A stretch of DNA of 64,000 nt, from contig CAZEVD010000001.1 of the NCBI GenBank assembly GCA_964515475.1, forward strand, positions 156,125 to 220,124, in the 5' to 3' direction. The notes under the pieces are model-generated. The model had not been told where the DNA came from and made no database searches. It saw nothing but the letters and a program-made list of their open reading frames with translations. Position numbers and translations under genes: made by a program. Positions 1,301 through 62,064 of this stretch are shown piece by piece. Numbering within the stretch: position 1 is the stretch's first letter; every line of letters begins with the position of its first letter. This DNA comes from an uncultured Eubacteriales bacterium (lineage in GTDB: Bacteria; Bacillota; Clostridia; TANB77; UBA1234).

Positions 1301-2203
1301 ATGAAACGGTTTTGGGAAGACACGCGTAACGGCTTAAAGATTTATAACTGCGATAATTTAGAATTGTTGCAGTCTCTTAGAAGTGATTCTATAAATCTCA
1401 TATATTGTGACATCCTCTATAATACAGGTAAGAAGTTTGATGATTACGATGACAATCTCGGTTCTCCAGAAGAAGCTGTTGAATGGTATCGGCTCCGCAT
1501 GATTGAAATGCGTAGAGTCCTTGCCGAAAATGGCAGCATATTTATTCATTGCAACTGGCGACTTGATTCGTATATTCGTATTCTGATGGATCAAATTTTT
1601 GGCGGTGATTGTTTTAGAAATCGAATTTATCGTAAACACAGTGCGGAACGCGGTTTCTACAGCAATTTCGATTCTCAAATGGATGTTATTCTCTACTACG
1701 TAAAGGATAAGGCAAATTTTGTTTTCCATGAGCTTTTGGGTGAGCGCGAAAGCATTGTACCGCTGTTCGAAAATGGTTATATCCAGGGTAGAAGCGAAGC
1801 GCGTTGTTGCAACTGTCAAATTATTAATTTAGGGGAAATGAATAAGCATTGGCTGATATCTGATAATCAGCTTATTGACATGGACCTTAAAGGTGAGGTT
1901 AGAGTAATTGACGGTTTGCCGTATCGTTTTTCGAAAGTTATTCCGGTCGGTAACCTGTGGGCTGAAGATGAGATGCTTGATGAGTATAGTCGTACGAATA
2001 CTGCTTTGGCCTATGATACGCCTAAGCCCGACGCGGTTCTCGAACGCATCATAAGAATGTGTTCCAACGAATATGATACCGTCGCAGACTTCTTTATGGG
2101 CGGAGGTACAACCGCGCATGTTGCAAAAAGGCTTAATCGAAAGTTCATCGGTTGCGACATAAGCCAAAAAGCTTGCTGCGTTACAATTTCAAAATTGAAA
2201 TAA
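1301..2203 (+). CDS. Beta-class (N6A/N4C-type) DNA methyltransferase, orphan, non-canonical motif IV (DILY instead of DPPY)
   Basis: Order motif IV (IYCDILYN) .. FRNRIY .. C-terminal motif I (DFFMGGGTT..IGCDI); no restriction gene adjacent; GC-elevated. Confidence 0.7.
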   Translation: MKRFWEDTRNGLKIYNCDNLELLQSLRSDSINLIYCDILYNTGKKFDDYDDNLGSPEEAVEWYRLRMIEMRRVLAENGSIFIHCNWRLDSYIRILMDQIFGGDCFRNRIYRKHSAERGFYSNFDSQMDVILYYVKDKANFVFHELLGERESIVPLFENGYIQGRSEARCCNCQIINLGEMNKHWLISDNQLIDMDLKGEVRVIDGLPYRFSKVIPVGNLWAEDEMLDEYSRTNTALAYDTPKPDAVLERIIRMCSNEYDTVADFFMGGGTTAHVAKRLNRKFIGCDISQKACCVTISKLK

Positions 2204-2213
2204 CAAATTTTCG

Positions 2214-2258
2214 AAGAGAGGTTAATTTATTCCAAATTAGGATAGGTTAACCTCTTTT
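2214..2258 (+). terminator. Rho-independent terminator after MTase gene
   Basis: agaggttaa..ttaacctct hairpin followed by T-run. Confidence 0.6.
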
Positions 2259-2378
2259 GTCATATAATAAAAACGTTAAAATGACGCTTGGTCTATTGAA
2301 AAAATAGGCTTTTTTTTATATAATAAGTCTTGCGAAAATTATTATTGCTTAAATAAAAATTAAGAGGAGGAATTATAA

Positions 2379-3071
2379 ATGATATACTCAAAAGAAGTTG
2401 AAAATATGTGCCCAGTGGCTAAAGGAGTTAATCATGGACCTGCACCAATACCTGAAGAAGGCAAATGGGTTAAGTCTAAAGAAATTAAAGATATTTCAGG
2501 ATTAACACATGGTATTGGTTGGTGTGCACCTCAACAAGGAGCTTGTAAATTAACATTAAACGTTAAAGAAGGAATTATTGAAGAAGCTTTGGTAGAAACA
2601 CTAGGATGTTCAGGAATGACACATTCAGCTGCTATGGCTGGTGAAATCTTAGTTGGAAAAACAATTCTTGAAGCTTTAAACACTGACTTAGTTTGTGATG
2701 CTATTAATACTGCAATGAGAGAATTATTCTTACAAATCGTATATGGTAGAACACAATCTGCATTTTCAGAGAATGGACTTCCAATTGGAGCTGGTCTTGA
2801 AGATTTAGGAAAAGGACACAGAAGCCAAGTTGGTACAATATATAGTACAAATATTAAAGGACCAAGATACTTAGAACTTGCTGAAGGTTATATTACAGAA
2901 GTTGGTCTAGATAAAGATAATGAAATCATTGGTTACAAATACGTAAACTTAGGAAAAATGATGGAAAATATTAAAAAAGGAATCGAACCTATGGAAGCTA
3001 TTGAGAAAGCTTCTGGTAAGTATGGTAGATTTGATGAAGCGGTAAAAACTATTGATCCACGTGCAGAATAA
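2379..3071 (+). CDS. NifU/IscU-like Fe-S scaffold domain protein; first gene of GGGtGRT cassette
   Basis: Segment TLNVKEGIIEEALVETLGCSGMTHSAAMAGEILVGKTILEALN parallels IscU core; conserved Cys (GWCAPQQGAC, GCSG, VCDA); strong RBS aagaggagg. Confidence 0.5.
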   Translation: MIYSKEVENMCPVAKGVNHGPAPIPEEGKWVKSKEIKDISGLTHGIGWCAPQQGACKLTLNVKEGIIEEALVETLGCSGMTHSAAMAGEILVGKTILEALNTDLVCDAINTAMRELFLQIVYGRTQSAFSENGLPIGAGLEDLGKGHRSQVGTIYSTNIKGPRYLELAEGYITEVGLDKDNEIIGYKYVNLGKMMENIKKGIEPMEAIEKASGKYGRFDEAVKTIDPRAE

Positions 3072-14845: not shown

Positions 14846-16690
14846 GTGAAGAAAATTTTTGTAATAATAGCTGTACTAATTGTCTTTGGAACGTGTTTTG
14901 TATGTGGAGCGACATTTAATGATATTGAAGGATTATGGGCTGAAGCTGTTATAAATGAAATGGCACAAAAAGGAATTATTAATGGTTTTGAAGATGGAAC
15001 TTTTAGACCAGAAGAGGATGTGTCAAGAGAACAGTTTGCTAAAATCTTAGTTGAAAGTTTTAATATAGAAGAATTAAATACAAGTGTAACATTTCAGGAC
15101 GTTGAAGAGGATAGATGGTCTAGAGAATATGTTTCGAGAGCAACAAAGTACATGACAGACTATATTTATCCAGGACAATATTGGTTTAGACCAGAAGAGA
15201 GTTGCACAAGAGCAGAAGTTGCGAAAGCTGTTGTTAAAGCTTATGGTTTAGATTATTCCACTCCAGATTATACAGTGTTAAATAAGTTTTCAGATGTTTA
15301 TGAAATTAGAGAAGCTGACAAAAAATATGTAGCGATAGCGATTGAAAACGAACTTATGAGAGGAAAAGGTGAATTCTTTGATCCACAAAGTGGATTAAAG
15401 AGAGCTGAAGTATGTCAACTAATTTTTAATGTATATCAAAAAATTGAAGCGGAAAGTATTTTATATGGAGATGTAAATTCAGACGAGAAAATTAATTCGA
15501 TAGATGTAAACAAGTTAAAAAAATATTTAAATACGCATGAAGAAGAAATTGATTTTCGTGCTGCTGATGTGAACTGTGATGAAGAACTGTCTGAAAATGA
15601 TATTTGGATACTAAAAGCTGTAGTAGATAAATATGATGTAAAATTGCCACATATTTGCTCGGGATACACAGAAACATATACAAGATTAAATGATGAAAAA
15701 CATGAAAAAATAGAACTTTGTAATTGTGGAAGTATAAAAGTTTTATTGAAGACAGAAAAACACAAATTTAAAGAAGATAAATGTGTTTGCGGTGCTTTGG
15801 ACGGAAACGAATACATAATTTTAGAAGAATTTGAATACAGAGTTAGACCTTCATCAAACACATATAAAAAATTTGTGGAAATACAAATAGGAAGTGGTGA
15901 TTTTGTTTCATATCAAGATGATGATATTGTAATAACACCTAAACCAGATGAAATAAACACAGATAAATTTGGAAATTTGTATGCGTATTATGATATAAAT
16001 GAAGTAGAAGAAGATACGATTTTTAAAGTTAGTGTACAAAGAAGAGTTACAAGTGTACCATATGTGGAAAAAATACCTACGGATACAAACACAAACATAT
16101 TAGAAGGTTTTGAAATATATATAGAACCACAAGAAAGAATAGATTCTAATTACGAAGCTATTGTTTTAAAAGCAAAAGAGTTGACAGATGGGTGCGAAAG
16201 TGATTATGAAAAAGCAAAATGTATTTTTGAGTATGTAAATGTAAACTTAGAAAGTGATCTTTCTATAGAATATGCAAATAAAGGCTCTATTGCAGCAATT
16301 GAAAATTTGAGAGGATCTTCAGAAGAATTTTCGACTTTATTTGTAGCGATGTGCAGGGCGGTTGAAATCCCTAGTAGAGCTGTTTCGGGGTATGAGCTTA
16401 GAGATGGTGAGTTAATTAATATCCTTAGATCAGAAATTTATTTAGAAAAATATGGATGGGTTCCGGTTGATTCAAATTGCATATATATGATTGGAAGCGA
16501 AAGAGTTCCGTATTTTGATTCTTTTTGTAAATTGCAAGCAGATTCTTTTATAGTGAAAAATATTTATAATTATGAAAAGGCTTCTAGAACTATGAGAGGG
16601 GTTACAGAAGAAAGCTACACGTTAAAATTAATAAATAAAAGTGAAGTAAAAGGATATGATCTGTTGGAAGTACAAAACAACGTATATTAA
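14846..16690 (+). CDS. Cell-surface protein: signal peptide, SLH domains, dockerin-like repeat, C-terminal transglutaminase-like cysteine protease domain
   Basis: SLH motif (GFEDGTFRPEEDVSREQFAKIL), dockerin-like GDVNSDEKINSIDVNKLKKYL, transglutaminase core FSTLFVAMCRAVEIPSRAVSGYEL. Confidence 0.65.
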   Translation: MKKIFVIIAVLIVFGTCFVCGATFNDIEGLWAEAVINEMAQKGIINGFEDGTFRPEEDVSREQFAKILVESFNIEELNTSVTFQDVEEDRWSREYVSRATKYMTDYIYPGQYWFRPEESCTRAEVAKAVVKAYGLDYSTPDYTVLNKFSDVYEIREADKKYVAIAIENELMRGKGEFFDPQSGLKRAEVCQLIFNVYQKIEAESILYGDVNSDEKINSIDVNKLKKYLNTHEEEIDFRAADVNCDEELSENDIWILKAVVDKYDVKLPHICSGYTETYTRLNDEKHEKIELCNCGSIKVLLKTEKHKFKEDKCVCGALDGNEYIILEEFEYRVRPSSNTYKKFVEIQIGSGDFVSYQDDDIVITPKPDEINTDKFGNLYAYYDINEVEEDTIFKVSVQRRVTSVPYVEKIPTDTNTNILEGFEIYIEPQERIDSNYEAIVLKAKELTDGCESDYEKAKCIFEYVNVNLESDLSIEYANKGSIAAIENLRGSSEEFSTLFVAMCRAVEIPSRAVSGYELRDGELINILRSEIYLEKYGWVPVDSNCIYMIGSERVPYFDSFCKLQADSFIVKNIYNYEKASRTMRGVTEESYTLKLINKSEVKGYDLLEVQNNVY

Positions 16691-16711
16691 ACTTTTATTT
16701 GATATAAAGTA

Positions 16712-16745
16712 AAAAAACGAGCACAAAGATGTGCTCGTTTTTTAT
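16712..16745. terminator. Bidirectional rho-independent terminator (A-run, cgagcacaaagatgtgctcg hairpin, T-run) shared by convergent genes
   Basis: Perfect 8-bp stem flanked by A7 and T7. Confidence 0.75.
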
Positions 16746-16748
16746 GTG

Positions 16749-16871
16749 CTAGTTACATCCACAACCAATTCCTCTATTATCATTTCCACCACAACAGTTA
16801 CAGATAATGAATATTAAAATTATAATCCAAATGAAATCATCGCATCCTCCAAAACAACCTCTGTTTCCCAT
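16749..16871 (-). CDS. 40-aa Cys/Gly-rich membrane peptide MGNRGCFGGCDDFIWIIILIFIICNCCGGNDNRGIGCGCN
   Basis: RBS aaaggaggg 7 nt upstream; paralogous to adjacent 65-aa gene (MGN..C..C..DD, TM, CNCC/GCGC). Confidence 0.45.
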   Translation of the reverse strand: MGNRGCFGGCDDFIWIIILIFIICNCCGGNDNRGIGCGCN

Positions 16872-16902
16872 ACAAATTCCCTCCTTTCAATTAAAACTAA
16901 TT

Positions 16903-17100
16903 TTATGAACAACCGCACCCGTTGTTGCAATTATTTATTCCCATTGTGTTGCAACCACAATCAGAGTTATTATTACAACCACAGTTGCAATTTGAATTAC
17001 AGTTACCGCTTGAACCATTCCAAAACAGTAATAAGAATAAAATCAAAAACCAAAGTATGTCATCGTCATTATTGCAAAAACATCTAAATAAATTTCCCAT
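16903..17100 (-). CDS. 65-aa Cys/Asn-rich membrane peptide (MGNLFRCFCNNDDD-TM-CNSNCNCGCNNNSDCGCN..CNNGCGCS)
   Basis: RBS aaggagg 7 nt upstream; sigK/sigE-like CATAgcTA element ~25 nt upstream of ATG; tandem with 40-aa paralog. Confidence 0.5.
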   Translation of the reverse strand: MGNLFRCFCNNDDDILWFLILFLLLFWNGSSGNCNSNCNCGCNNNSDCGCNTMGINNCNNGCGCS

Positions 17101-17270
17101 GGAAACCTCCTTAAAAGTTTGTTTTTGTAGCTATGTTATATACTATTCAAATTTTAAAAATGTGTTACTGAGTTTTTGATTTTATTAATATTCTGTAATT
17201 TTTACATTGCATTTCGAGGTATATGATATAATGTAGCTATCTAAAAAGTTCGGGGAAGAAAGGTGAAAGC

Positions 17271-18300
17271 ATGAATGAATTTGAAAAAGAAGTTAAAGGC
17301 TTAAAAAAACTTGGAGTATATTTTTTTGTTTCACTTATATGTTATTTAGTTTTTAAAAATATACATGAATATGTTGAATCTTTATTACGTATGGTTGTTT
17401 TGTGTTTGGGATTTTATTTCTTTATATTATTTATTGTAGTAGCAGTGCAATATTTAGGTATGTTGTTTGGAAAAATCCTAGGCTCTTCTAAAAGAAAAAT
17501 GAGTCAATTAGATAAAACTGATTTTAAGTTAGAAAAGGAATATTATCGAGAAATATTAAAAAATAGTTCGCCATTAATAATTGGATATATAGATAATTTT
17601 AAATTAAGTAAAAATAAAATTATAGCCGAGTTATTGTATTTGAAAAGGAAAAATTTAATAATATTTGATGATGATAAAATAATGAAAGCTGAAGATTGTG
17701 AAAATGTTCAATTACTAAAAAGTGAAAAAATGATACTGGATTCTATATATCACAACAAATTTAGAGTATCTGATTACGATACTTTTTTAGAAGAACTAAA
17801 AGAAAATGTTATAAATGAAGCGGAAAATTTATTGCTTGTAAAAGAGAAAAAAGCTAAAAACAAAAGTAAAAAAATTAATATCGACTGGAAAACAATTATT
17901 GATAGATATCTTCGGTTTGATTATATTTGTACCAACTATTTTAGTTTCGTTGATTACGCTGTTATTTCCTTTTATAATCAAATATTTGGAAATGATAGCG
18001 GCAATGTTGATGTTGTCAACTTTGTTTTTGGCTGGAATTTGGGTAATTAAAACTTTAATAAAACGAGGATATGATGCGGGGAAAGGTCGACTATGCAAAC
18101 GAACATCTAAAGGACGTGAATTAAACTTAAAATTAGAGGGATTAAAAGAATATTTGAAAGATTATAGTTTGCTAGATGAAAGAGAAGTGAGAGAAATCGA
18201 ATTGTGGGAAGATTATTTAATATATTCGGTTATGTTTGGACAAAATAAAAATATCGTAGAAGAATTTGATAAATACATGGATATACAAAAGAAAATATAA
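17271..18300 (+). pseudogene. DUF2207-like membrane protein split by frameshift (ORFs 17271-18050 and 17899-18300 overlap in different frames)
   Basis: C-terminal part has DUF2207-like LWEDYLIYSVMFG motif; frame change near 17905-17920. Confidence 0.45.
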
Positions 18301-58458: not shown

Positions 58459-58526
58459 TAAAAATAGGAATATTATTTAAATCCTTCTAATACTTATTTT
58501 ATAGATAAGTGTTAGGAGGATTTTTT

Positions 58527-59357
58527 ATGAAAATAAAGTTTATTATTTTAGTGGCGATAGTAATAGCTTTAATAATGATTTTTAATAATGCATCCCGAGA
58601 AGAAGAAAAAATTTCTTTTGATCCTTTAGAATTAGAGTTGGGGCAAGAGTTTACAGCTTTAAAATCAGATAAAGCTAAGTATGTTTTAAACTATTCTATC
58701 TCAGACGTTACTGGTGATACCGTAAATGATGTAATAATCGTAGTTGGCGAAAAAATGGATGAAGGAAAATATACCAATTTTGATGTAGTTGTATATGATA
58801 CTGATAGCGAAAAAATATATAAAGCAATTAATAAAAAAACTGCAAGCAAAGTAACAAAAATTGAATCAAAAGATTTAACTGGTGATGATTTGAATGATAT
58901 TATTTTTATTTGCGAAAACGAAGACAAAACTTTAAGCGTGAATGTCGCAGCATATAAAGAGGGGGGATTTAAAGAAATATTTAGTGAGCGAGAAAATGAA
59001 GGAGTTAGTGTAAGTGGAGCTTTTTTGGATGGATTTAAAGCCGATATCAATTTAAAAACTTTCGGTAAGAAAAGTACATATGACTTAAAAGAAAATAAAC
59101 AAAATTATATAACTAGTGGATTTTATGCTGAAAATGGGAAGTTACTTTCTAAGAATATGACAATACGAGCTTCGAAATTTGCAGAAGTTGAATTTGTAAT
59201 GCTTTCTAATTCGTATGGACTTAGAACTAAACAATTTATTAAAGGATTTGATAATTTAGACATATTAGATGAAATTCAAGTTTTGTGGAAATATGAAAAT
59301 AATAAATGGATACCTTGCGAAGCGATGAGTACAAAATTAGGAAATTTATTATATTAA
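58527..59357 (+). CDS. Secreted protein with FG-GAP/VCBS-like repeats (start 58527)
   Basis: Signal peptide; DVTGDTVNDVI and DLTGDDLNDII repeats; RBS aggagga. Confidence 0.45.
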   Translation: MKIKFIILVAIVIALIMIFNNASREEEKISFDPLELELGQEFTALKSDKAKYVLNYSISDVTGDTVNDVIIVVGEKMDEGKYTNFDVVVYDTDSEKIYKAINKKTASKVTKIESKDLTGDDLNDIIFICENEDKTLSVNVAAYKEGGFKEIFSERENEGVSVSGAFLDGFKADINLKTFGKKSTYDLKENKQNYITSGFYAENGKLLSKNMTIRASKFAEVEFVMLSNSYGLRTKQFIKGFDNLDILDEIQVLWKYENNKWIPCEAMSTKLGNLLY

Positions 59358-59363
59358 TTTGTA

Positions 59364-59390
59364 ACATTTTTTTTAGTTCTTCATAAAATA
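59364..59390 (+). promoter_or_regulatory. SigK-like promoter AC-N16-CATAAAATA upstream of small Cys-rich peptide gene
   Basis: Matches mother-cell sigma K consensus AC-16/17-CATAnnnTA. Confidence 0.35.
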
Positions 59391-59419
59391 TAGTATAAAA
59401 TTTATGGAGGTATGAGAGT

Positions 59420-59548
59420 ATGGATTGTTTAGGAAATAATTCTTTGGGAAATTTGTGTTGTAATGATATGAATTCTGGAGAAAACTCATGTTGTAGCAAT
59501 AAATTTTTATTTTTTATTCTAATATATATATTACTTTTCTTAAGATAA
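59420..59548 (+). CDS. 42-aa Cys-rich peptide MDCLGNNSLGNLCCNDMNSGENSCCSNKFLFFILIYILLFLR with C-terminal TM
   Basis: RBS ggaggt 9 nt upstream; CC doublets similar to 16.7-17.1 kb peptides; not in ORF track. Confidence 0.4.
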   Translation: MDCLGNNSLGNLCCNDMNSGENSCCSNKFLFFILIYILLFLR

Positions 59549-59615
59549 ATTAGATGTATCTAATAAGCAAGTGTGATAAAATTGTTTTATAAATTTGAAA
59601 GGGGTGTATATACTA

Positions 59616-60563
59616 ATGAAAAAATTAATATGGATTTTAGTTATGGCAATGATTATTGGAATTGTTGTTGGATGTACACAAAATATTTCGGAAAATGAGC
59701 AAGTAGAAAATAACAATTTGAGTGGAGAAACGCAAAGTGGAGAAATAGAAGAAGATAACGAATTAGAATCGGGTTCGGAACTTGAAGTTGAGCTTAGTGG
59801 TGATGAGATTCAAGAAACTGAAGAAGTGATTGAAGATGTAGAGGTAACTCCGACTGTTTCAACAGATCTTCCTAACACAGTTTGTGCGTGGGGATTTGTT
59901 CGAAAGAAAGATGAAGTTCAACCAGAAATATACGGTCCTTATTCTAAGGTGTTAGATGCATATAATGGTATATACATAGGAAATAAAGACGAAAAGAAGA
60001 TTTATCTTACATTTGATGAAGGATATGAAAATGGATATTCTGATGATATATTAGATACTTTAAAAGAAAAAAATGTTAAAGCTACTTTTTTTGTTACGAT
60101 GCCATATGTGAAACAAAATAAAGAATTAATACAAAGAATGATTGATGAAGGGCATATTGTTGGAAATCACACTGTAAATCATCCAAGTATGCCAGAAGTA
60201 ACGGATGATGAAAAACTAAAAAAAGAAGTTATGGATCTACATGATTATATGGTAGAAAACTTTAATTATGAAATGACATACTTAAGACCACCAAAGGGAG
60301 AATATAGTGAAAGAACAGTGAAGATTTGTAAAGATTTAGGTTACACACATGTACTTTGGAGTAGCGCATATGATGATTGGGATGTAAATAATCAAAAAGG
60401 AAATGAGTATGCGAAGAAAATGATTTTGAATTATTCGCATAATGGTTGCGTTATGTTATTACATGCGGTTTCAAAAGATAATACAGAAGTTTTAGGTGAT
60501 ATCATTGATGAATTAAGAAATAGAGAGTATGAATTTTGCTCTCTAGACGATTTTGAAAGGTAA
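59616..60563 (+). CDS. Polysaccharide deacetylase (NodB domain) lipoprotein with acidic SGE-type linker
   Basis: Lipobox IVVGC, NodB motifs TFDEGY / HTVNHP; start 59616. Confidence 0.8.
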   Translation: MKKLIWILVMAMIIGIVVGCTQNISENEQVENNNLSGETQSGEIEEDNELESGSELEVELSGDEIQETEEVIEDVEVTPTVSTDLPNTVCAWGFVRKKDEVQPEIYGPYSKVLDAYNGIYIGNKDEKKIYLTFDEGYENGYSDDILDTLKEKNVKATFFVTMPYVKQNKELIQRMIDEGHIVGNHTVNHPSMPEVTDDEKLKKEVMDLHDYMVENFNYEMTYLRPPKGEYSERTVKICKDLGYTHVLWSSAYDDWDVNNQKGNEYAKKMILNYSHNGCVMLLHAVSKDNTEVLGDIIDELRNREYEFCSLDDFER

Positions 60564-60881: not shown

Positions 60882-62064
60882 ATGTTTCTACAAAATACAT
60901 ATAAATTTTTAAGAGGTTTTATAAAAGTTAGAGCAGAAGGATATTTTGTAGAACGATTACTTAATTTATGTCAAACTAGGGATATAGAAACGTGGGACGT
61001 TTTACTAAGAGAAAGTGGTACGATTGAATTTAAGATGAGAGCCAGAGATTATAGAAAACTTAAAGAAATTGCTAAAATTACTCACTCTGAAATTGAAATA
61101 CTTGGTGAAGAGGGGGCTTGGAATTTTCTAAAAAAATACAAAAAAAGAAAAATATTTTTGATGGCAGGAGTATTTGCCGTTATAACTATTTACTTGTTGA
61201 GTTTGCGAATTTGGAGTATTGAAATTATTGGCAATGAGAAAATAAGTATAGCAGACATAAAAACAGAGTTACATAATGAAGGAATTACAGTAGGTGTAAC
61301 AAAAGATAAATTAGACTTTAATACCGTAAAAAGTAATATTTATTTGAGACGAAATGATATTCTTTGGCTAGGTTTTAAAGTGAATGGGACAAAAATGATT
61401 GTTGAAGTGTTAGAAAGAAAAAATCCAATAAAAGATGATTTTCAAAACGTTCCATGCAATATAATTGCAGAAAAAGATGGAATAATAGATAGTATTTATG
61501 TAAAACAAGGAACGAAGTGTGTTGATGTTGGGGATATGGTTTTTAAAGGTGATGTTATCGTAAGTGGGATTGTTACAAGTGAGTATTCAGATGCAAAAGA
61601 AGTGTCGGCAAATGCGGAAATAACAATGAAAACTTGGTATACTGAAAAAGTAGCGATTCCTTATGAAAAAAGTATTATTGTAAAGTCGGGAAATATCGAT
61701 TATGACTATAAATTAAAGGTCCGGAAATTGTGTGATAAATTTATTAAATAATAGTACAAAATTTGAAAAGTATGATACAATTAACAGTGTGAAAAGACTT
61801 GTTTTATTTGGAAAATATGAATTACCGATTAAATTAGAAACGCTAAAAAAGGAAGAATATTTTTTAGATGAAATAAGTTACACAAAAGATCAAGCTGAAA
61901 TCATTGCAAAAACTACAGTTTTGCAACTTGTAAAGGGTAATATTCCTGATGATAGCAAAATTGTTAATAGCGAGTATAATGTCTATGAAGATGAAAATGA
62001 AGTTATTGTTAGGGTTACTGTCGAATGCATTGAAGAAGTTGGTCAAAAAGAGGAAATAAAATAA
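60882..62064 (+). pseudogene. yqfD: Sporulation protein YqfD split by +1 frameshift near 61717-61748 (ORFs 60882-61751 and 61732-62064)
   Basis: Combined ~399 aa equals YqfD; N-terminal part has YqfD TM and core; C-terminal part continues in +1 frame. Confidence 0.65.

What the first reader, a model, noticed from the sequence alone, without database searches (positions are those of the whole stretch)
16749..17270. Tandem small Cys/Gly/Asn-rich membrane peptides with sigma-K-like promoter (third copy at 59420-59548)
Two adjacent minus-strand genes of 65 and 40 aa share MGN-x-C-F-x-x-C-(N/D)DD, a ~12-residue hydrophobic helix and a tail rich in CNC/CC/GCGC motifs. Both have strong RBSs (aaggagg, aaaggaggg). 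A CATAgcTA element (sigK/sigE -10-like) sits ~25 nt upstream of the first. A third 42-aa peptide with CC doublets at 59420 is preceded by a good sigK-type promoter (AC-N16-CATAAAATA). Small Cys-rich proteins transcribed in the mother cell are typical spore coat/exosporium cross-linking components (CdeC/CdeM/CotY-like), but these are far smaller and have a TM segment. They fall below standard ORF callers, as two of the three are absent from the track, so they are probably unannotated.
Basis: partly seen in the sequence, partly recalled or inferred. Interest (0 to 1): 0.55.

Follow-up and report, generated by a model that had tools for sequence, protein, structure and literature searches.

The report
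Tiny cysteine-rich late-sporulation peptide genes
Two adjacent, real but uncatalogued genes encode 65- and 40-residue greasy, cysteine-rich peptides from a small family in uncultured gut Clostridia that nearly always sits behind a late mother-cell (sigma-K type) sporulation promoter, so they are most likely tiny components of the spore's outer layers.

Summary
Two minus-strand ORFs (17100..16903, 65 aa; 16871..16749, 40 aa) have strong ribosome-binding sites, a 31-nt gap and one strong terminator. They are real genes: the long-then-short pair recurs in six other, diverged kinds of locus, with dN/dS about 0.04-0.3. The overlapping plus-strand ORFs are broken by stop codons in relatives.

The peptides belong to a rare, unnamed family of uncultured gut Clostridia: a short N-terminus, acidic residues, an 11-15-residue hydrophobic helix (ILWFLILFLLLFW type), then a Cys/Gly/Asn tail, or a Gly/Tyr tail in one locus. 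No Pfam or NCBIfam model matches.

The main new result is a promoter footprint, GTAAC(A/C)-N15-16-(C/A)ATAnnnT(A/G), which is the sigma-K type. It lies upstream of the first family gene in 16 of 17 family loci examined, including 7 of 8 fetched after the pattern was fixed. The window also carries pdaA and a yqfD-like gene, so the organism probably sporulates.

The third peptide (59420..59548) has a canonical sigma-K promoter and one syntenic counterpart, but homology to the pair is not shown.

Best reading: late mother-cell peptides built into the spore coat or envelope, analogous to Bacillus YjcZ/SscA. Expression and location are untested.

The parts
17162..17168 (-). -35 element GTAACAC of the conserved sigma-K-type promoter
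   Evidence: Identical GTAACAC at a fixed distance in window, L006, L010, L011, L013, L014, L015, L017, L020, L022, L025 and L030, while the spacer varies. An AC at -35 marks sigma-K as opposed to sigma-E (PMC3789822).
17139..17147 (-). -10 element AATAGTATA (non-canonical first base; the canonical form is CATAnnnTA)
   Evidence: It lies 16 nt after the AC of the -35. More distant family members have CATAGTATA, CATATTATG or CATACAATA at the same position. The pattern GTAACAN{15,17}MATANNNTA hits only here and at 59361..59390 in 64 kb (0.16 expected).
17128..17135 (-).
   Evidence: It is conserved as (A/C)CATA(GCTA/AGCA/CTAA) only in the clade whose -10 reads AATA. It has no conserved -35 partner. 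Its role is unexplained.
17106..17112 (-). RBS AAGGAGG of the long gene
   Evidence: It ends 5 nt before the ATG. All orthologues have an equivalent RBS.
16903..17100 (-). Long peptide gene, 65 aa: short N-terminus, DDD, helix ILWFLILFLLLFW, and a 38-residue Cys/Asn/Gly tail
   Evidence: ORF. Homologues. dN/dS is 0.05-0.33. It is the only frame open in all 7 orthologues. AlphaFold2 gives a helix at residues 12-27 and a disordered tail.
16879..16887 (-). RBS AAAGGAGGG of the short gene
   Evidence: It ends 7 nt before the ATG and is conserved in orthologues.
16749..16871 (-). Short peptide gene, 40 aa: GCFGGCDD, helix FIWIIILIFII, tail CNCCGGNDNRGIGCGCN
   Evidence: ORF. Homologues at 84-93% identity. 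dN/dS is 0-0.11, and L010 versus L011 shows 12 synonymous and 0 non-synonymous changes.
16712..16743 (-). Intrinsic terminator that ends the two-gene transcription unit
   Evidence: A 14-pair stem followed by a T run. It is the only terminator-like site in 16400..17600.
59361..59390 (+). Canonical sigma-K-type promoter GTAACA-N15-CATAAAATA in front of the third peptide
59420..59548 (+). Third peptide gene, 42 aa, with the inverted build: a Cys/Asn/Gly-rich N-terminus, then the hydrophobic run FLFFILIYILLFL at the C-terminus
   Evidence: ORF and GGAGG RBS (59406..59410). L017 has a syntenic counterpart upstream of pdaA (MGEGCGCNNNNSNENCCCNSKFLFFVLIFLILATNN) with an RBS. Peptides of the same build sit in family arrays in L021, L022 and L030. 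No protein homologue is on record. hhalign against the family gives only 37%.

Best explanation
The locus is a two-gene operon for tiny, very hydrophobic, cysteine-rich peptides made late in sporulation in the mother cell.

Proposed mechanism:
1. RNA polymerase carrying sigma-K starts at the conserved promoter (GTAACAC, 14 nt, AATAGTATA).
2. One short mRNA carries both ORFs, each with a strong RBS, and ends at the hairpin terminator.
3. Each peptide folds into one short helix of 11-15 purely hydrophobic residues, preceded by acidic residues. This helix drives self-association or insertion into the membrane or lipid-rich layer around the forespore.
4. The flexible Cys/Gly/Asn tail is then locked into the coat or exosporium matrix by disulfide bonds. 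Relatives whose tails are Gly/Tyr-rich would use tyrosine cross-links instead.

The third peptide at 59420 is a separately transcribed peptide of the same class.

Shown here: the genes are real and under selection, the pair order is conserved, the promoter footprint is conserved, and the organism has sporulation genes.

Inferred: sigma-K dependence (from the motif), the spore coat or envelope location, and the cross-linking. The last two rest on composition and on analogy with B. subtilis YjcZ and SscA.
For: Real genes: the pair is conserved in the L006-L009 type, L010, L011, L013, L017 and L020. dN/dS is 0.04-0.33. The antisense frames carry stops in most orthologues.

Family: profile searches find only short unnamed metagenome proteins with the same build. 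Genome hits are all uncultured Clostridia MAGs from sheep, goat and human gut and one other metagenome.

Promoter: GTAAC-N16-18-[AC]ATAnnnT[AG] occurs 18 times in 180 kb of non-redundant loci, and 14 of those hits lie directly upstream of a family gene. Of 8 loci fetched after the pattern was fixed, 7 have it. The eighth has AC-N16-CATATATTT. Chance per 150-nt upstream region is 0.06-0.26%. The literature gives AC at -35 with a CATA-type -10 as the sigma-K signature in B. subtilis and C. difficile (PMC517825, PMC3789822).

Sporulation context: pdaA scores 298.8 bits against a cut-off of 298, and a yqfD-like gene is in the window. spo0A and ytfJ lie next to family arrays elsewhere.

Precedent: B. 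subtilis yjcZ is assigned to the sigma-K regulon (PMC517825). The 28-aa hydrophobic SscA is a safA-dependent inner-coat protein, and loss of sscA reduces CotB, CotG and CotH in spores (PMC13417171).

Tail chemistry: Cys-rich tails are replaced by GYGYGY tails in L025 while the helix is kept. Tail length varies by indels between close relatives, as expected for a low-complexity structural segment.
Against: There are no expression, proteomic or localisation data; the organism is uncultured.

In the window's clade the -10 starts with A, not the highly conserved C, so recognition by sigma-K is less certain there. A second conserved CATA block just downstream is unexplained.

No sigK gene was looked for in this genome.

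No profile similarity to YjcZ/Tiny_TM_bacill was found, so the link to Bacillus peptides is analogy only.

A hydrophobic run of 11-15 residues is short for a bilayer-spanning helix.

Cys-rich tails could equally serve to bind metal.
Confidence: 0.55

Rival explanations
1. These are late mother-cell membrane micro-proteins with an assembly, regulatory or lytic role rather than a structural one. They insert into the outer forespore or mother-cell membrane. There they modulate a partner complex, as SpoVM and CmpA do, or permeabilise the mother cell to help release the spore.
For: The peptides have a single hydrophobic helix and are very small. The promoter is sigma-K type, which means late mother cell. 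Small mother-cell proteins with non-structural roles are known (SpoVM and CmpA; PMC10730256).
Against: The hydrophobic run of 11-15 residues is short for a transmembrane span. SpoVM and CmpA are sigma-E dependent, and SpoVM is amphipathic rather than uniformly hydrophobic. The multi-copy arrays with fast-evolving low-complexity Cys or Gly/Tyr tails look structural. No conserved partner gene lies nearby: the neighbours differ between loci.
Confidence: 0.2
2. These are anchored metal-binding peptides, like metallothioneins. The CxC/CC-rich tails chelate Zn, Cu or Fe-S and load or buffer metal in the developing spore.
For: The tails are dominated by CGC, CNC and CC motifs, and several short-type members end in CC-COOH. 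One array (L025) lies near a Csp copper-storage gene.
Against: The array next to Csp is the very one whose tails have lost their cysteines (0-1 Cys; Gly/Tyr-rich instead) while keeping the helix and promoter. Cysteine is therefore not the conserved essential feature. Cys positions are not conserved in register between relatives. No metal transporter or regulator is consistently nearby.
Confidence: 0.1
3. These are precursors of a secreted, modified peptide (a RiPP or bacteriocin), or type I toxins of a toxin-antitoxin pair.
For: The peptides are small, Cys-rich or hydrophobic, and sit in tandem. One member gave a very weak hit to an rSAM-modified RiPP model (E 0.16).
Against: No maturase, radical-SAM enzyme, protease or ABC exporter gene is consistently adjacent in the loci. 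The one exception is L028, where a radical-SAM and an ATP-grasp gene lie downstream. No SCIFF or other RiPP or toxin model matches. The conserved promoter is a sporulation type, not the sigma-A type usual for type I toxins (PMC10730256). No conserved antisense promoter was seen, and there is no Rfam match.
Confidence: 0.04
4. These are chance ORFs in AT-rich DNA, or the overlapping plus-strand ORFs (16905..17087, 16922..17179) are the real genes.
For: The plus-strand ORFs are open in the window, and partly open in L011.
Against: Substitutions are overwhelmingly synonymous in the minus-strand frames. The two antisense frames carry stop codons in five of the six other orthologues each. RBS, promoter and terminator all serve the minus strand.
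Confidence: 0.01

Closest known systems
Bacillus YjcZ / SscA (YhzE) tiny sporulation peptides (Pfam Tiny_TM_bacill PF09680, NCBIfam TIGR01732; the accession-to-family assignment is from my own knowledge)
   Same: Both are 28-50-residue peptides with one central, very hydrophobic stretch flanked by Gly/Cys/Tyr-rich low-complexity segments (that description of the Bacillus peptides is from my own knowledge). yjcZ is assigned to the sigma-K regulon (PMC517825). SscA is a hydrophobic inner-coat protein whose loss reduces several coat proteins in spores (PMC13417171).
   Different: No profile match was found at E up to 10 for 37 family members. The helix motif differs: (D/E)x(I/L)LW(F/I)(I/L)IL(F/I)... 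with an invariant Trp and acidic residues before it. Tails are much richer in Cys and Asn. The genes occur as a conserved long-plus-short pair or as 3-4-gene arrays. The hosts are uncultured gut Clostridia, not Bacillaceae.
Cysteine-rich coat and exosporium morphogenetic proteins (C. difficile CdeC/CdeM, Bacillus CotY/CotZ/ExsY)
   Same: Both are expected to be sigma-K-dependent, cysteine-rich, and disulfide cross-linked into the outer spore layers.
   Different: Those proteins are roughly 100-400 residues long and soluble, with no hydrophobic helix. There is no sequence similarity (no Pfam hit).
SpoVM / CmpA (small mother-cell proteins of B. subtilis)
   Same: Both are very small proteins made in the mother cell that act at the forespore surface (PMC10730256).
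   Different: SpoVM and CmpA are sigma-E dependent, and SpoVM is an amphipathic helix that senses membrane curvature. The peptides here are uniformly hydrophobic, have Cys-rich tails and carry a sigma-K-type promoter.
SCIFF / ranthipeptide precursors (six cysteines in forty-five residues) of Clostridia
   Same: Both are short Cys-rich peptides that are widespread in Clostridia.
   Different: SCIFF has no hydrophobic helix and is always next to a radical-SAM maturase. Here there is no model match and no consistently adjacent maturase.

Membership tests
YjcZ / Tiny_TM_bacill family (PF09680, TIGR01732) | Significant match to the family profile | tested here: not met
   hmmscan against Pfam-A and NCBIfam at E up to 10 was run for the 3 window peptides, the 27 members of A2 (Pfam only) and 10 further members. 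No hit to these models appeared. Caveat: HMMER's filters can drop weak hits on short, biased sequences.
YjcZ / Tiny_TM_bacill family (PF09680, TIGR01732) | About 30-50 aa, with one central hydrophobic stretch flanked by Gly/Cys/Tyr-rich segments | tested here: met
   Lengths are 36-67 aa, hydrophobic runs 11-15 residues, and flanks Cys/Gly/Asn-rich or Gly/Tyr-rich. AlphaFold2 predicts a single helix.
Sigma-K regulon (late mother-cell genes) | Promoter with AC at -35 and CATAnnnTA at -10, 16-17 nt apart | tested here: met
   The third peptide has the canonical form, GTAACA-N15-CATAAAATA. The pair has GTAACAC-N14-AATAGTATA, with a non-canonical first base in the -10. Other family members have the canonical form. 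The consensus is taken from PMC517825 and PMC3789822.
Sigma-K regulon (late mother-cell genes) | Transcription depends on sigK and occurs late in the mother cell | not testable with these tools
   No expression data are available, and the organism is known only from metagenomes.
Spore coat / exosporium structural proteins | Physically present in the coat or exosporium of mature spores | not testable with these tools
   This needs spore proteomics or fusion-protein localisation.
SCIFF / radical-SAM-modified RiPP precursors | Profile match and an adjacent radical-SAM maturase | tested here: not met
   There is no TIGR03973 hit, and the only RiPP-model hit is E 0.16 for one member. No maturase lies next to the pair in the window, L001-L011, L020, L021 or L022.
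Type I toxin-antitoxin toxins | Toxin family match, an overlapping antisense RNA, and vegetative (sigma-A) expression | tested here: inconclusive
   There is no toxin-family hit and no Rfam sRNA above noise. The conserved promoter is a sporulation type. An antisense RNA cannot be excluded without transcript data.
Bacterial lipoproteins (signal peptide II) | Positively charged n-region, h-region, and a lipobox [LVI][ASTVI][GAS]C | tested here: not met
   By inspection of the sequences: the region before the hydrophobic run is net acidic (1 basic against 2-4 acidic residues). The residues before the first tail Cys (FWNG-, IICN-, LILF-) do not form a lipobox. In the window's long peptide the first tail Cys lies 7 residues after the run.

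The most novel reading that the evidence does not exclude
Spore-forming gut Clostridia carry a previously undescribed class of sigma-K-driven lipophilic micro-peptides, encoded in pairs or arrays. An ultra-short hydrophobic helix self-assembles into a water-repellent layer of the spore envelope. Interchangeable cross-linking tails (Cys for disulfides, Gly/Tyr for dityrosine) staple that layer to the coat. This would be a convergent or extremely diverged counterpart of Bacillus YjcZ/SscA, and a general, overlooked building principle of endospore surfaces.
Probability: 0.3. Interest if true: 0.6.

Novelty: new variant of a known kind. Interest (0 to 1): 0.45.

Why it matters
Spore coats of gut Clostridia are poorly understood. 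Few Bacillus coat proteins are conserved there, and peptides under 70 residues are routinely missed by annotation and by proteomics.

This locus defines a family that is absent from Pfam and NCBIfam and carries no name in any source consulted. Its promoter footprint is clean enough to assign it to the late mother-cell programme by computation alone.

If the peptides are coat components, three things follow:
- They add a hydrophobic, cross-linkable element to clostridial spore architecture, with possible bearing on spore hydrophobicity, adhesion and resistance.
- They give a tiny, highly expressed anchor for spore display, the use recently proposed for SscA in Bacillus.
- They supply a compact sigma-K promoter consensus (GTAACAC-N14/15-CATAGTATA) usable for regulon prediction in uncultured Clostridia.

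Tried and rejected
- Pfam and NCBIfam scans of the three window peptides and of 37 family members gave no meaningful family. The DltX hit (2 members, E 6e-4) is a match between hydrophobic helices and was disregarded.
- tblastn of the long peptide against 72,556 plasmids found nothing.
- The protein search with the third peptide found no candidate, and the exact look-up found no record.
- hhalign of the third peptide against the family aligned only the hydrophobic stretch, at probability 37%. It is therefore not filed as a homologue.
- Rfam on 16400..17500 gave only sub-threshold noise.
- Tandem Repeats Finder on the tail-coding DNA found no repeat array, so the Cys motifs are not a recent DNA repeat.
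- AlphaFold2 gave only the expected single helix at low confidence (pLDDT 55), so no fold search was run.
- The sigma-70 scan found no more sites than in shuffles.
- A sigma-G/F reading (GAATA ... CATAGCTA) was rejected because the spacing is 8 nt. A sigma-E reading was rejected because the conserved -35 is AC, not ATA.
- A functional link to the convergent SLH-dockerin-transglutaminase-like gene (14846..16690) was rejected. That neighbour is replaced by other genes in L003, L006, L010 and L011.
- Lipoprotein, RiPP and toxin readings are covered under the rivals and the membership tests.
- Literature searches for the helix motif and for Tiny_TM_bacill found no paper.

Full report
**1. What is in the sequence**

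On the minus strand, two ORFs lie head to tail:
- 17100..16903, 65 aa: MGNLFRCFCNNDDDILWFLILFLLLFWNGSSGNCNSNCNCGCNNNSDCGCNTMGINNCNNGCGCS
- 16871..16749, 40 aa: MGNRGCFGGCDDFIWIIILIFIICNCCGGNDNRGIGCGCN

Each has a strong Shine-Dalgarno sequence: AAGGAGG at 17112..17106 and AAAGGAGGG at 16887..16879. The gap between the genes is 31 nt and holds no terminator. A 14-pair hairpin with a T run at 16743..16712 follows the second gene. It is the only terminator-like site in 1.2 kb.

Both peptides share one build:
- a short N-terminus with Cys and one Arg;
- two or three acidic residues;
- an uninterrupted hydrophobic run of 13 and 11 residues;
- a Cys/Gly/Asn tail (11 Cys of 65 residues; 7 Cys of 40).

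**2. Are they genes?**

Yes.
- The exact long peptide is called on five metagenome contigs, each time followed by a 40-aa gene. That gene encodes the window's short peptide on four contigs and differs by one residue on L003.
- Diverged versions of the same long-then-short pair occur in the L006-L009 type, L010, L011, L013, L017 and L020. In L006 the long gene had not been called.
- Codon-level comparison shows strong purifying selection in the minus-strand frames. dN/dS is 0.05-0.33 for the long gene and 0-0.11 for the short gene. L010 versus L011 in the short gene shows 12 synonymous and 0 non-synonymous differences.
Those two antisense frames carry stop codons in five of the six other orthologues each, and only the sense frame is open in all seven.
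- Rfam finds nothing above noise in the region.

**3. The family**

- No Pfam or NCBIfam model matches the window peptides or any of 37 relatives at E up to 10.
- Word-indexed searches and one exhaustive profile search of 1.84 billion cluster representatives found only a handful of short unnamed proteins: 17 clusters at E up to 1e-3. No source gives any of them a name.
- The common core is (D/E)-x-(I/L)-L-W-(F/I)-(I/L)-I-L-(F/I)-(L/F)-(L/I)-(L/I), with Trp, Ile and Leu invariant.
- Two subtypes form the conserved pair: long (ILWFLILFLLLFWNG...) and short (FIWIIILIFIIC.CCGGN..GIG..C).
- More distant genomes have single genes or arrays of 2-4 genes (L021, L022-L024, L025, L030).
- One 67-aa ORF fuses two units (P0021).
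- Tails vary by indels even between close relatives. In L025 they are Gly/Tyr-rich (GFGGYGYGYPKK) with 0-1 Cys, while the helix is kept.
- AlphaFold2 with the family alignment predicts one helix, residues 12-27 of the long peptide, and a disordered tail (pLDDT 55).
- Every genome hit is an uncultured Clostridia MAG from sheep rectum, goat colon, human gut or another metagenome.

**4. Genomic context**

The pair lies in a cdaA...prs neighbourhood whose intervening genes differ between relatives. None of the immediate neighbours is conserved with it. These include an SLH-dockerin-transglutaminase-like protein, DUF2207-like and DUF4435 proteins here, and uvrC/ytfJ, an MGDG synthase and spo0A elsewhere. 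There is no consistently adjacent maturase, exporter or immunity gene.

The window itself encodes pdaA (delta-lactam de-N-acetylase; 298.8 bits against a cut-off of 298) and a YqfD-like protein. The organism is therefore very probably an endospore former.

**5. The promoter: the key result**

Aligning the DNA upstream of the first family gene shows a two-block footprint with a variable spacer: GTAAC(A/C)(C/A), then 14-16 nt, then (C/A)ATAnnnT(A/G).

- In the window this is GTAACAC (17168..17162) and AATAGTATA (17147..17139).
- Distant members read GTAACAC-N15-CATAGTATA (L022, L025), GTAACAC-N14-CATACAATA (L030), GTAACC-N15-CATATTATG (L021) and GTAACC-N16-CATAGTATG (L028).
- An AC at -35 with a CATA---TA -10 at this spacing is the published sigma-K signature. 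Sigma-E shares the -10 but has ATA at -35 (PMC517825, PMC3789822).
- The pattern was fixed, from the window and the loci shown. Of eight family loci examined afterwards, seven carry the strict pattern: L017 minus strand, L020, L021, L022, L025, L028 and L030. The eighth, L026, carries AC-N16-CATATATTT.
- In 180 kb of non-redundant loci the strict pattern occurs 18 times, 14 of them directly upstream of a family gene.
- Shuffled upstream regions show the pattern in 0.06-0.26% of trials.

Two caveats apply.
1. In the window's clade the first base of the -10 is A, not the canonical C.
2. I read it as the start site or leader region, but it is unexplained.

**6. The third peptide**

The ORF at 59420..59548 encodes 42 aa (MDCLGNNSLGNLCCNDMNSGENSCCSNKFLFFILIYILLFLR). 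It has a GGAGG RBS and a textbook sigma-K-type promoter, GTAACA-N15-CATAAAATA at 59361..59390.

- It is not in the protein collection and has no protein homologue there.
- One relative does have a counterpart. In L017, whose pdaA is 76% identical, an ORF with an RBS sits at the same place upstream of pdaA: MGEGCGCNNNNSNENCCCNSKFLFFVLIFLILATNN. By my inspection of the sequence it is followed by a hairpin.
- Its build is inverted: the Cys-rich part comes first, the hydrophobic run comes last, and there is no tail.
- hhalign against the family aligns only the hydrophobic run, at probability 37%. Homology is not shown.
- Peptides of the same inverted build sit inside family arrays in L021 (48 aa), L022 (50 aa) and L030 (32 aa). 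It therefore belongs to the same functional class, if not demonstrably the same family.
- pdaA itself is sigma-G-controlled in C. difficile (PMC3789822), so this promoter is unlikely to be pdaA's own. No terminator separates the peptide gene from pdaA in the window.

**7. How it most likely works**

- Inferred from the promoter: sigma-K RNA polymerase transcribes the bicistronic unit late in the mother cell.
- Shown: both peptides are encoded and selected.
- Inferred from the anatomy: the short, purely hydrophobic helix, capped by acidic residues, drives self-association or insertion at the forespore surface. The flexible Cys-rich tail is oxidatively cross-linked into the coat or exosporium. 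The replacement of Cys tails by Gly/Tyr tails in L025, with the helix and promoter unchanged, fits a cross-linking or structural tail better than a metal-binding one.
- Precedent: B. subtilis yjcZ is assigned to the sigma-K regulon (PMC517825). The 28-aa hydrophobic SscA is an abundant, safA-dependent inner-coat protein, and spores from an sscA deletion strain have reduced CotB, CotG and CotH (PMC13417171).

I put about 0.55 on this full statement. Taken separately: about 0.97 that the genes are real, about 0.8 that they are sigma-K driven, and about 0.5 that they are structural coat or envelope components.

**8. Rivals**

- A non-structural membrane role (assembly factor, or help with mother-cell lysis): 0.2.
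- Metal binding: 0.1.
- A RiPP precursor or a type I toxin: 0.04.
- Chance ORFs or antisense genes: 0.01.

The evidence for and against each is given in the rival entries.

**9. Comparison with what is known, and novelty**

In function and architecture the closest thing is the Bacillus YjcZ/SscA group of tiny sporulation peptides. Membership fails the only sequence test I could run (no profile match), so I call this an analogue or a very distant relative, not a member.

It differs from CdeC, CdeM and CotY (large, soluble), from SpoVM and CmpA (sigma-E dependent; SpoVM is amphipathic) and from SCIFF (no helix, always has a maturase).

I rate it a new variant of a known kind. It is a real, conserved, uncurated small-protein family with an unusually clear regulatory assignment. 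It is of moderate interest to sporulation and small-protein specialists (0.45), but not a new category of system.

Noticed in passing
window 17271..18300 (+): Two overlapping ORFs in different frames: 259 aa with no Pfam hit, and 133 aa that is DUF2207_C. Together they look like one DUF2207-like membrane protein split by a frame change. The same split is called on L001-L004.
   Followed up: no
window 58509..59357 (+): The N-terminus of this 282-aa protein weakly matches NCBIfam NF040734, 'Cys-Cys-COOH (seleno)protein SaoC' (33 bits against a cut-off of 80). The protein does not end in CC. Several short-type family peptides elsewhere (P0008-P0012) do end in CC-COOH.
   Followed up: no
window 59595..60563 and 60882..61751 (+): pdaA scores at its curated cut-off, and a YqfD-like sporulation protein scores 224.6 bits against a cut-off of 256.7 (289 aa against a 382-position model). 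Both point to an endospore former.
   Followed up: partly
window 17128..17135 (-), and the equivalent position in L006, L010, L011, L013, L014, L015, L017, L020: A second conserved CATA block lies 3 nt downstream of the non-canonical AATAnnATA -10. It is found only in this clade and has no -35 partner, and its role is unexplained.
   Followed up: partly
L006 13177..13206 (-): The same promoter pattern (GTAACT-N15-CATATTATA) lies 29 nt upstream of an unrelated 46-aa hydrophobic ORF. This may be another small sigma-K-dependent membrane peptide.
   Followed up: no
L025 14..388 and 2196..2795: This family array has Gly/Tyr-rich tails with almost no Cys. It lies near a Csp copper-storage gene (PF03860) and a LysM-G5-M23 peptidase gene.
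   Followed up: no
L026 2501..2704; P0022, P0027: P0021 is two family units fused in one 67-aa ORF. P0022 (183 aa) and P0027 (102 aa) begin with a family unit and continue into unrelated sequence, which suggests gene fusions or mis-called ORFs.
   Followed up: no
window 14846..16690 (+): A 614-aa protein combining SLH, a type I dockerin and a transglutaminase-like core lies convergent with the peptide operon. The neighbourhood is not conserved in relatives, so no link is inferred.
   Followed up: partly
L028 3138..5171: An ATP-grasp gene and a radical-SAM (LAM_C) gene lie about 470 nt downstream of the family gene P0023. This is the only locus with possible peptide-modifying neighbours, and it also recurs in L029.
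   Followed up: no
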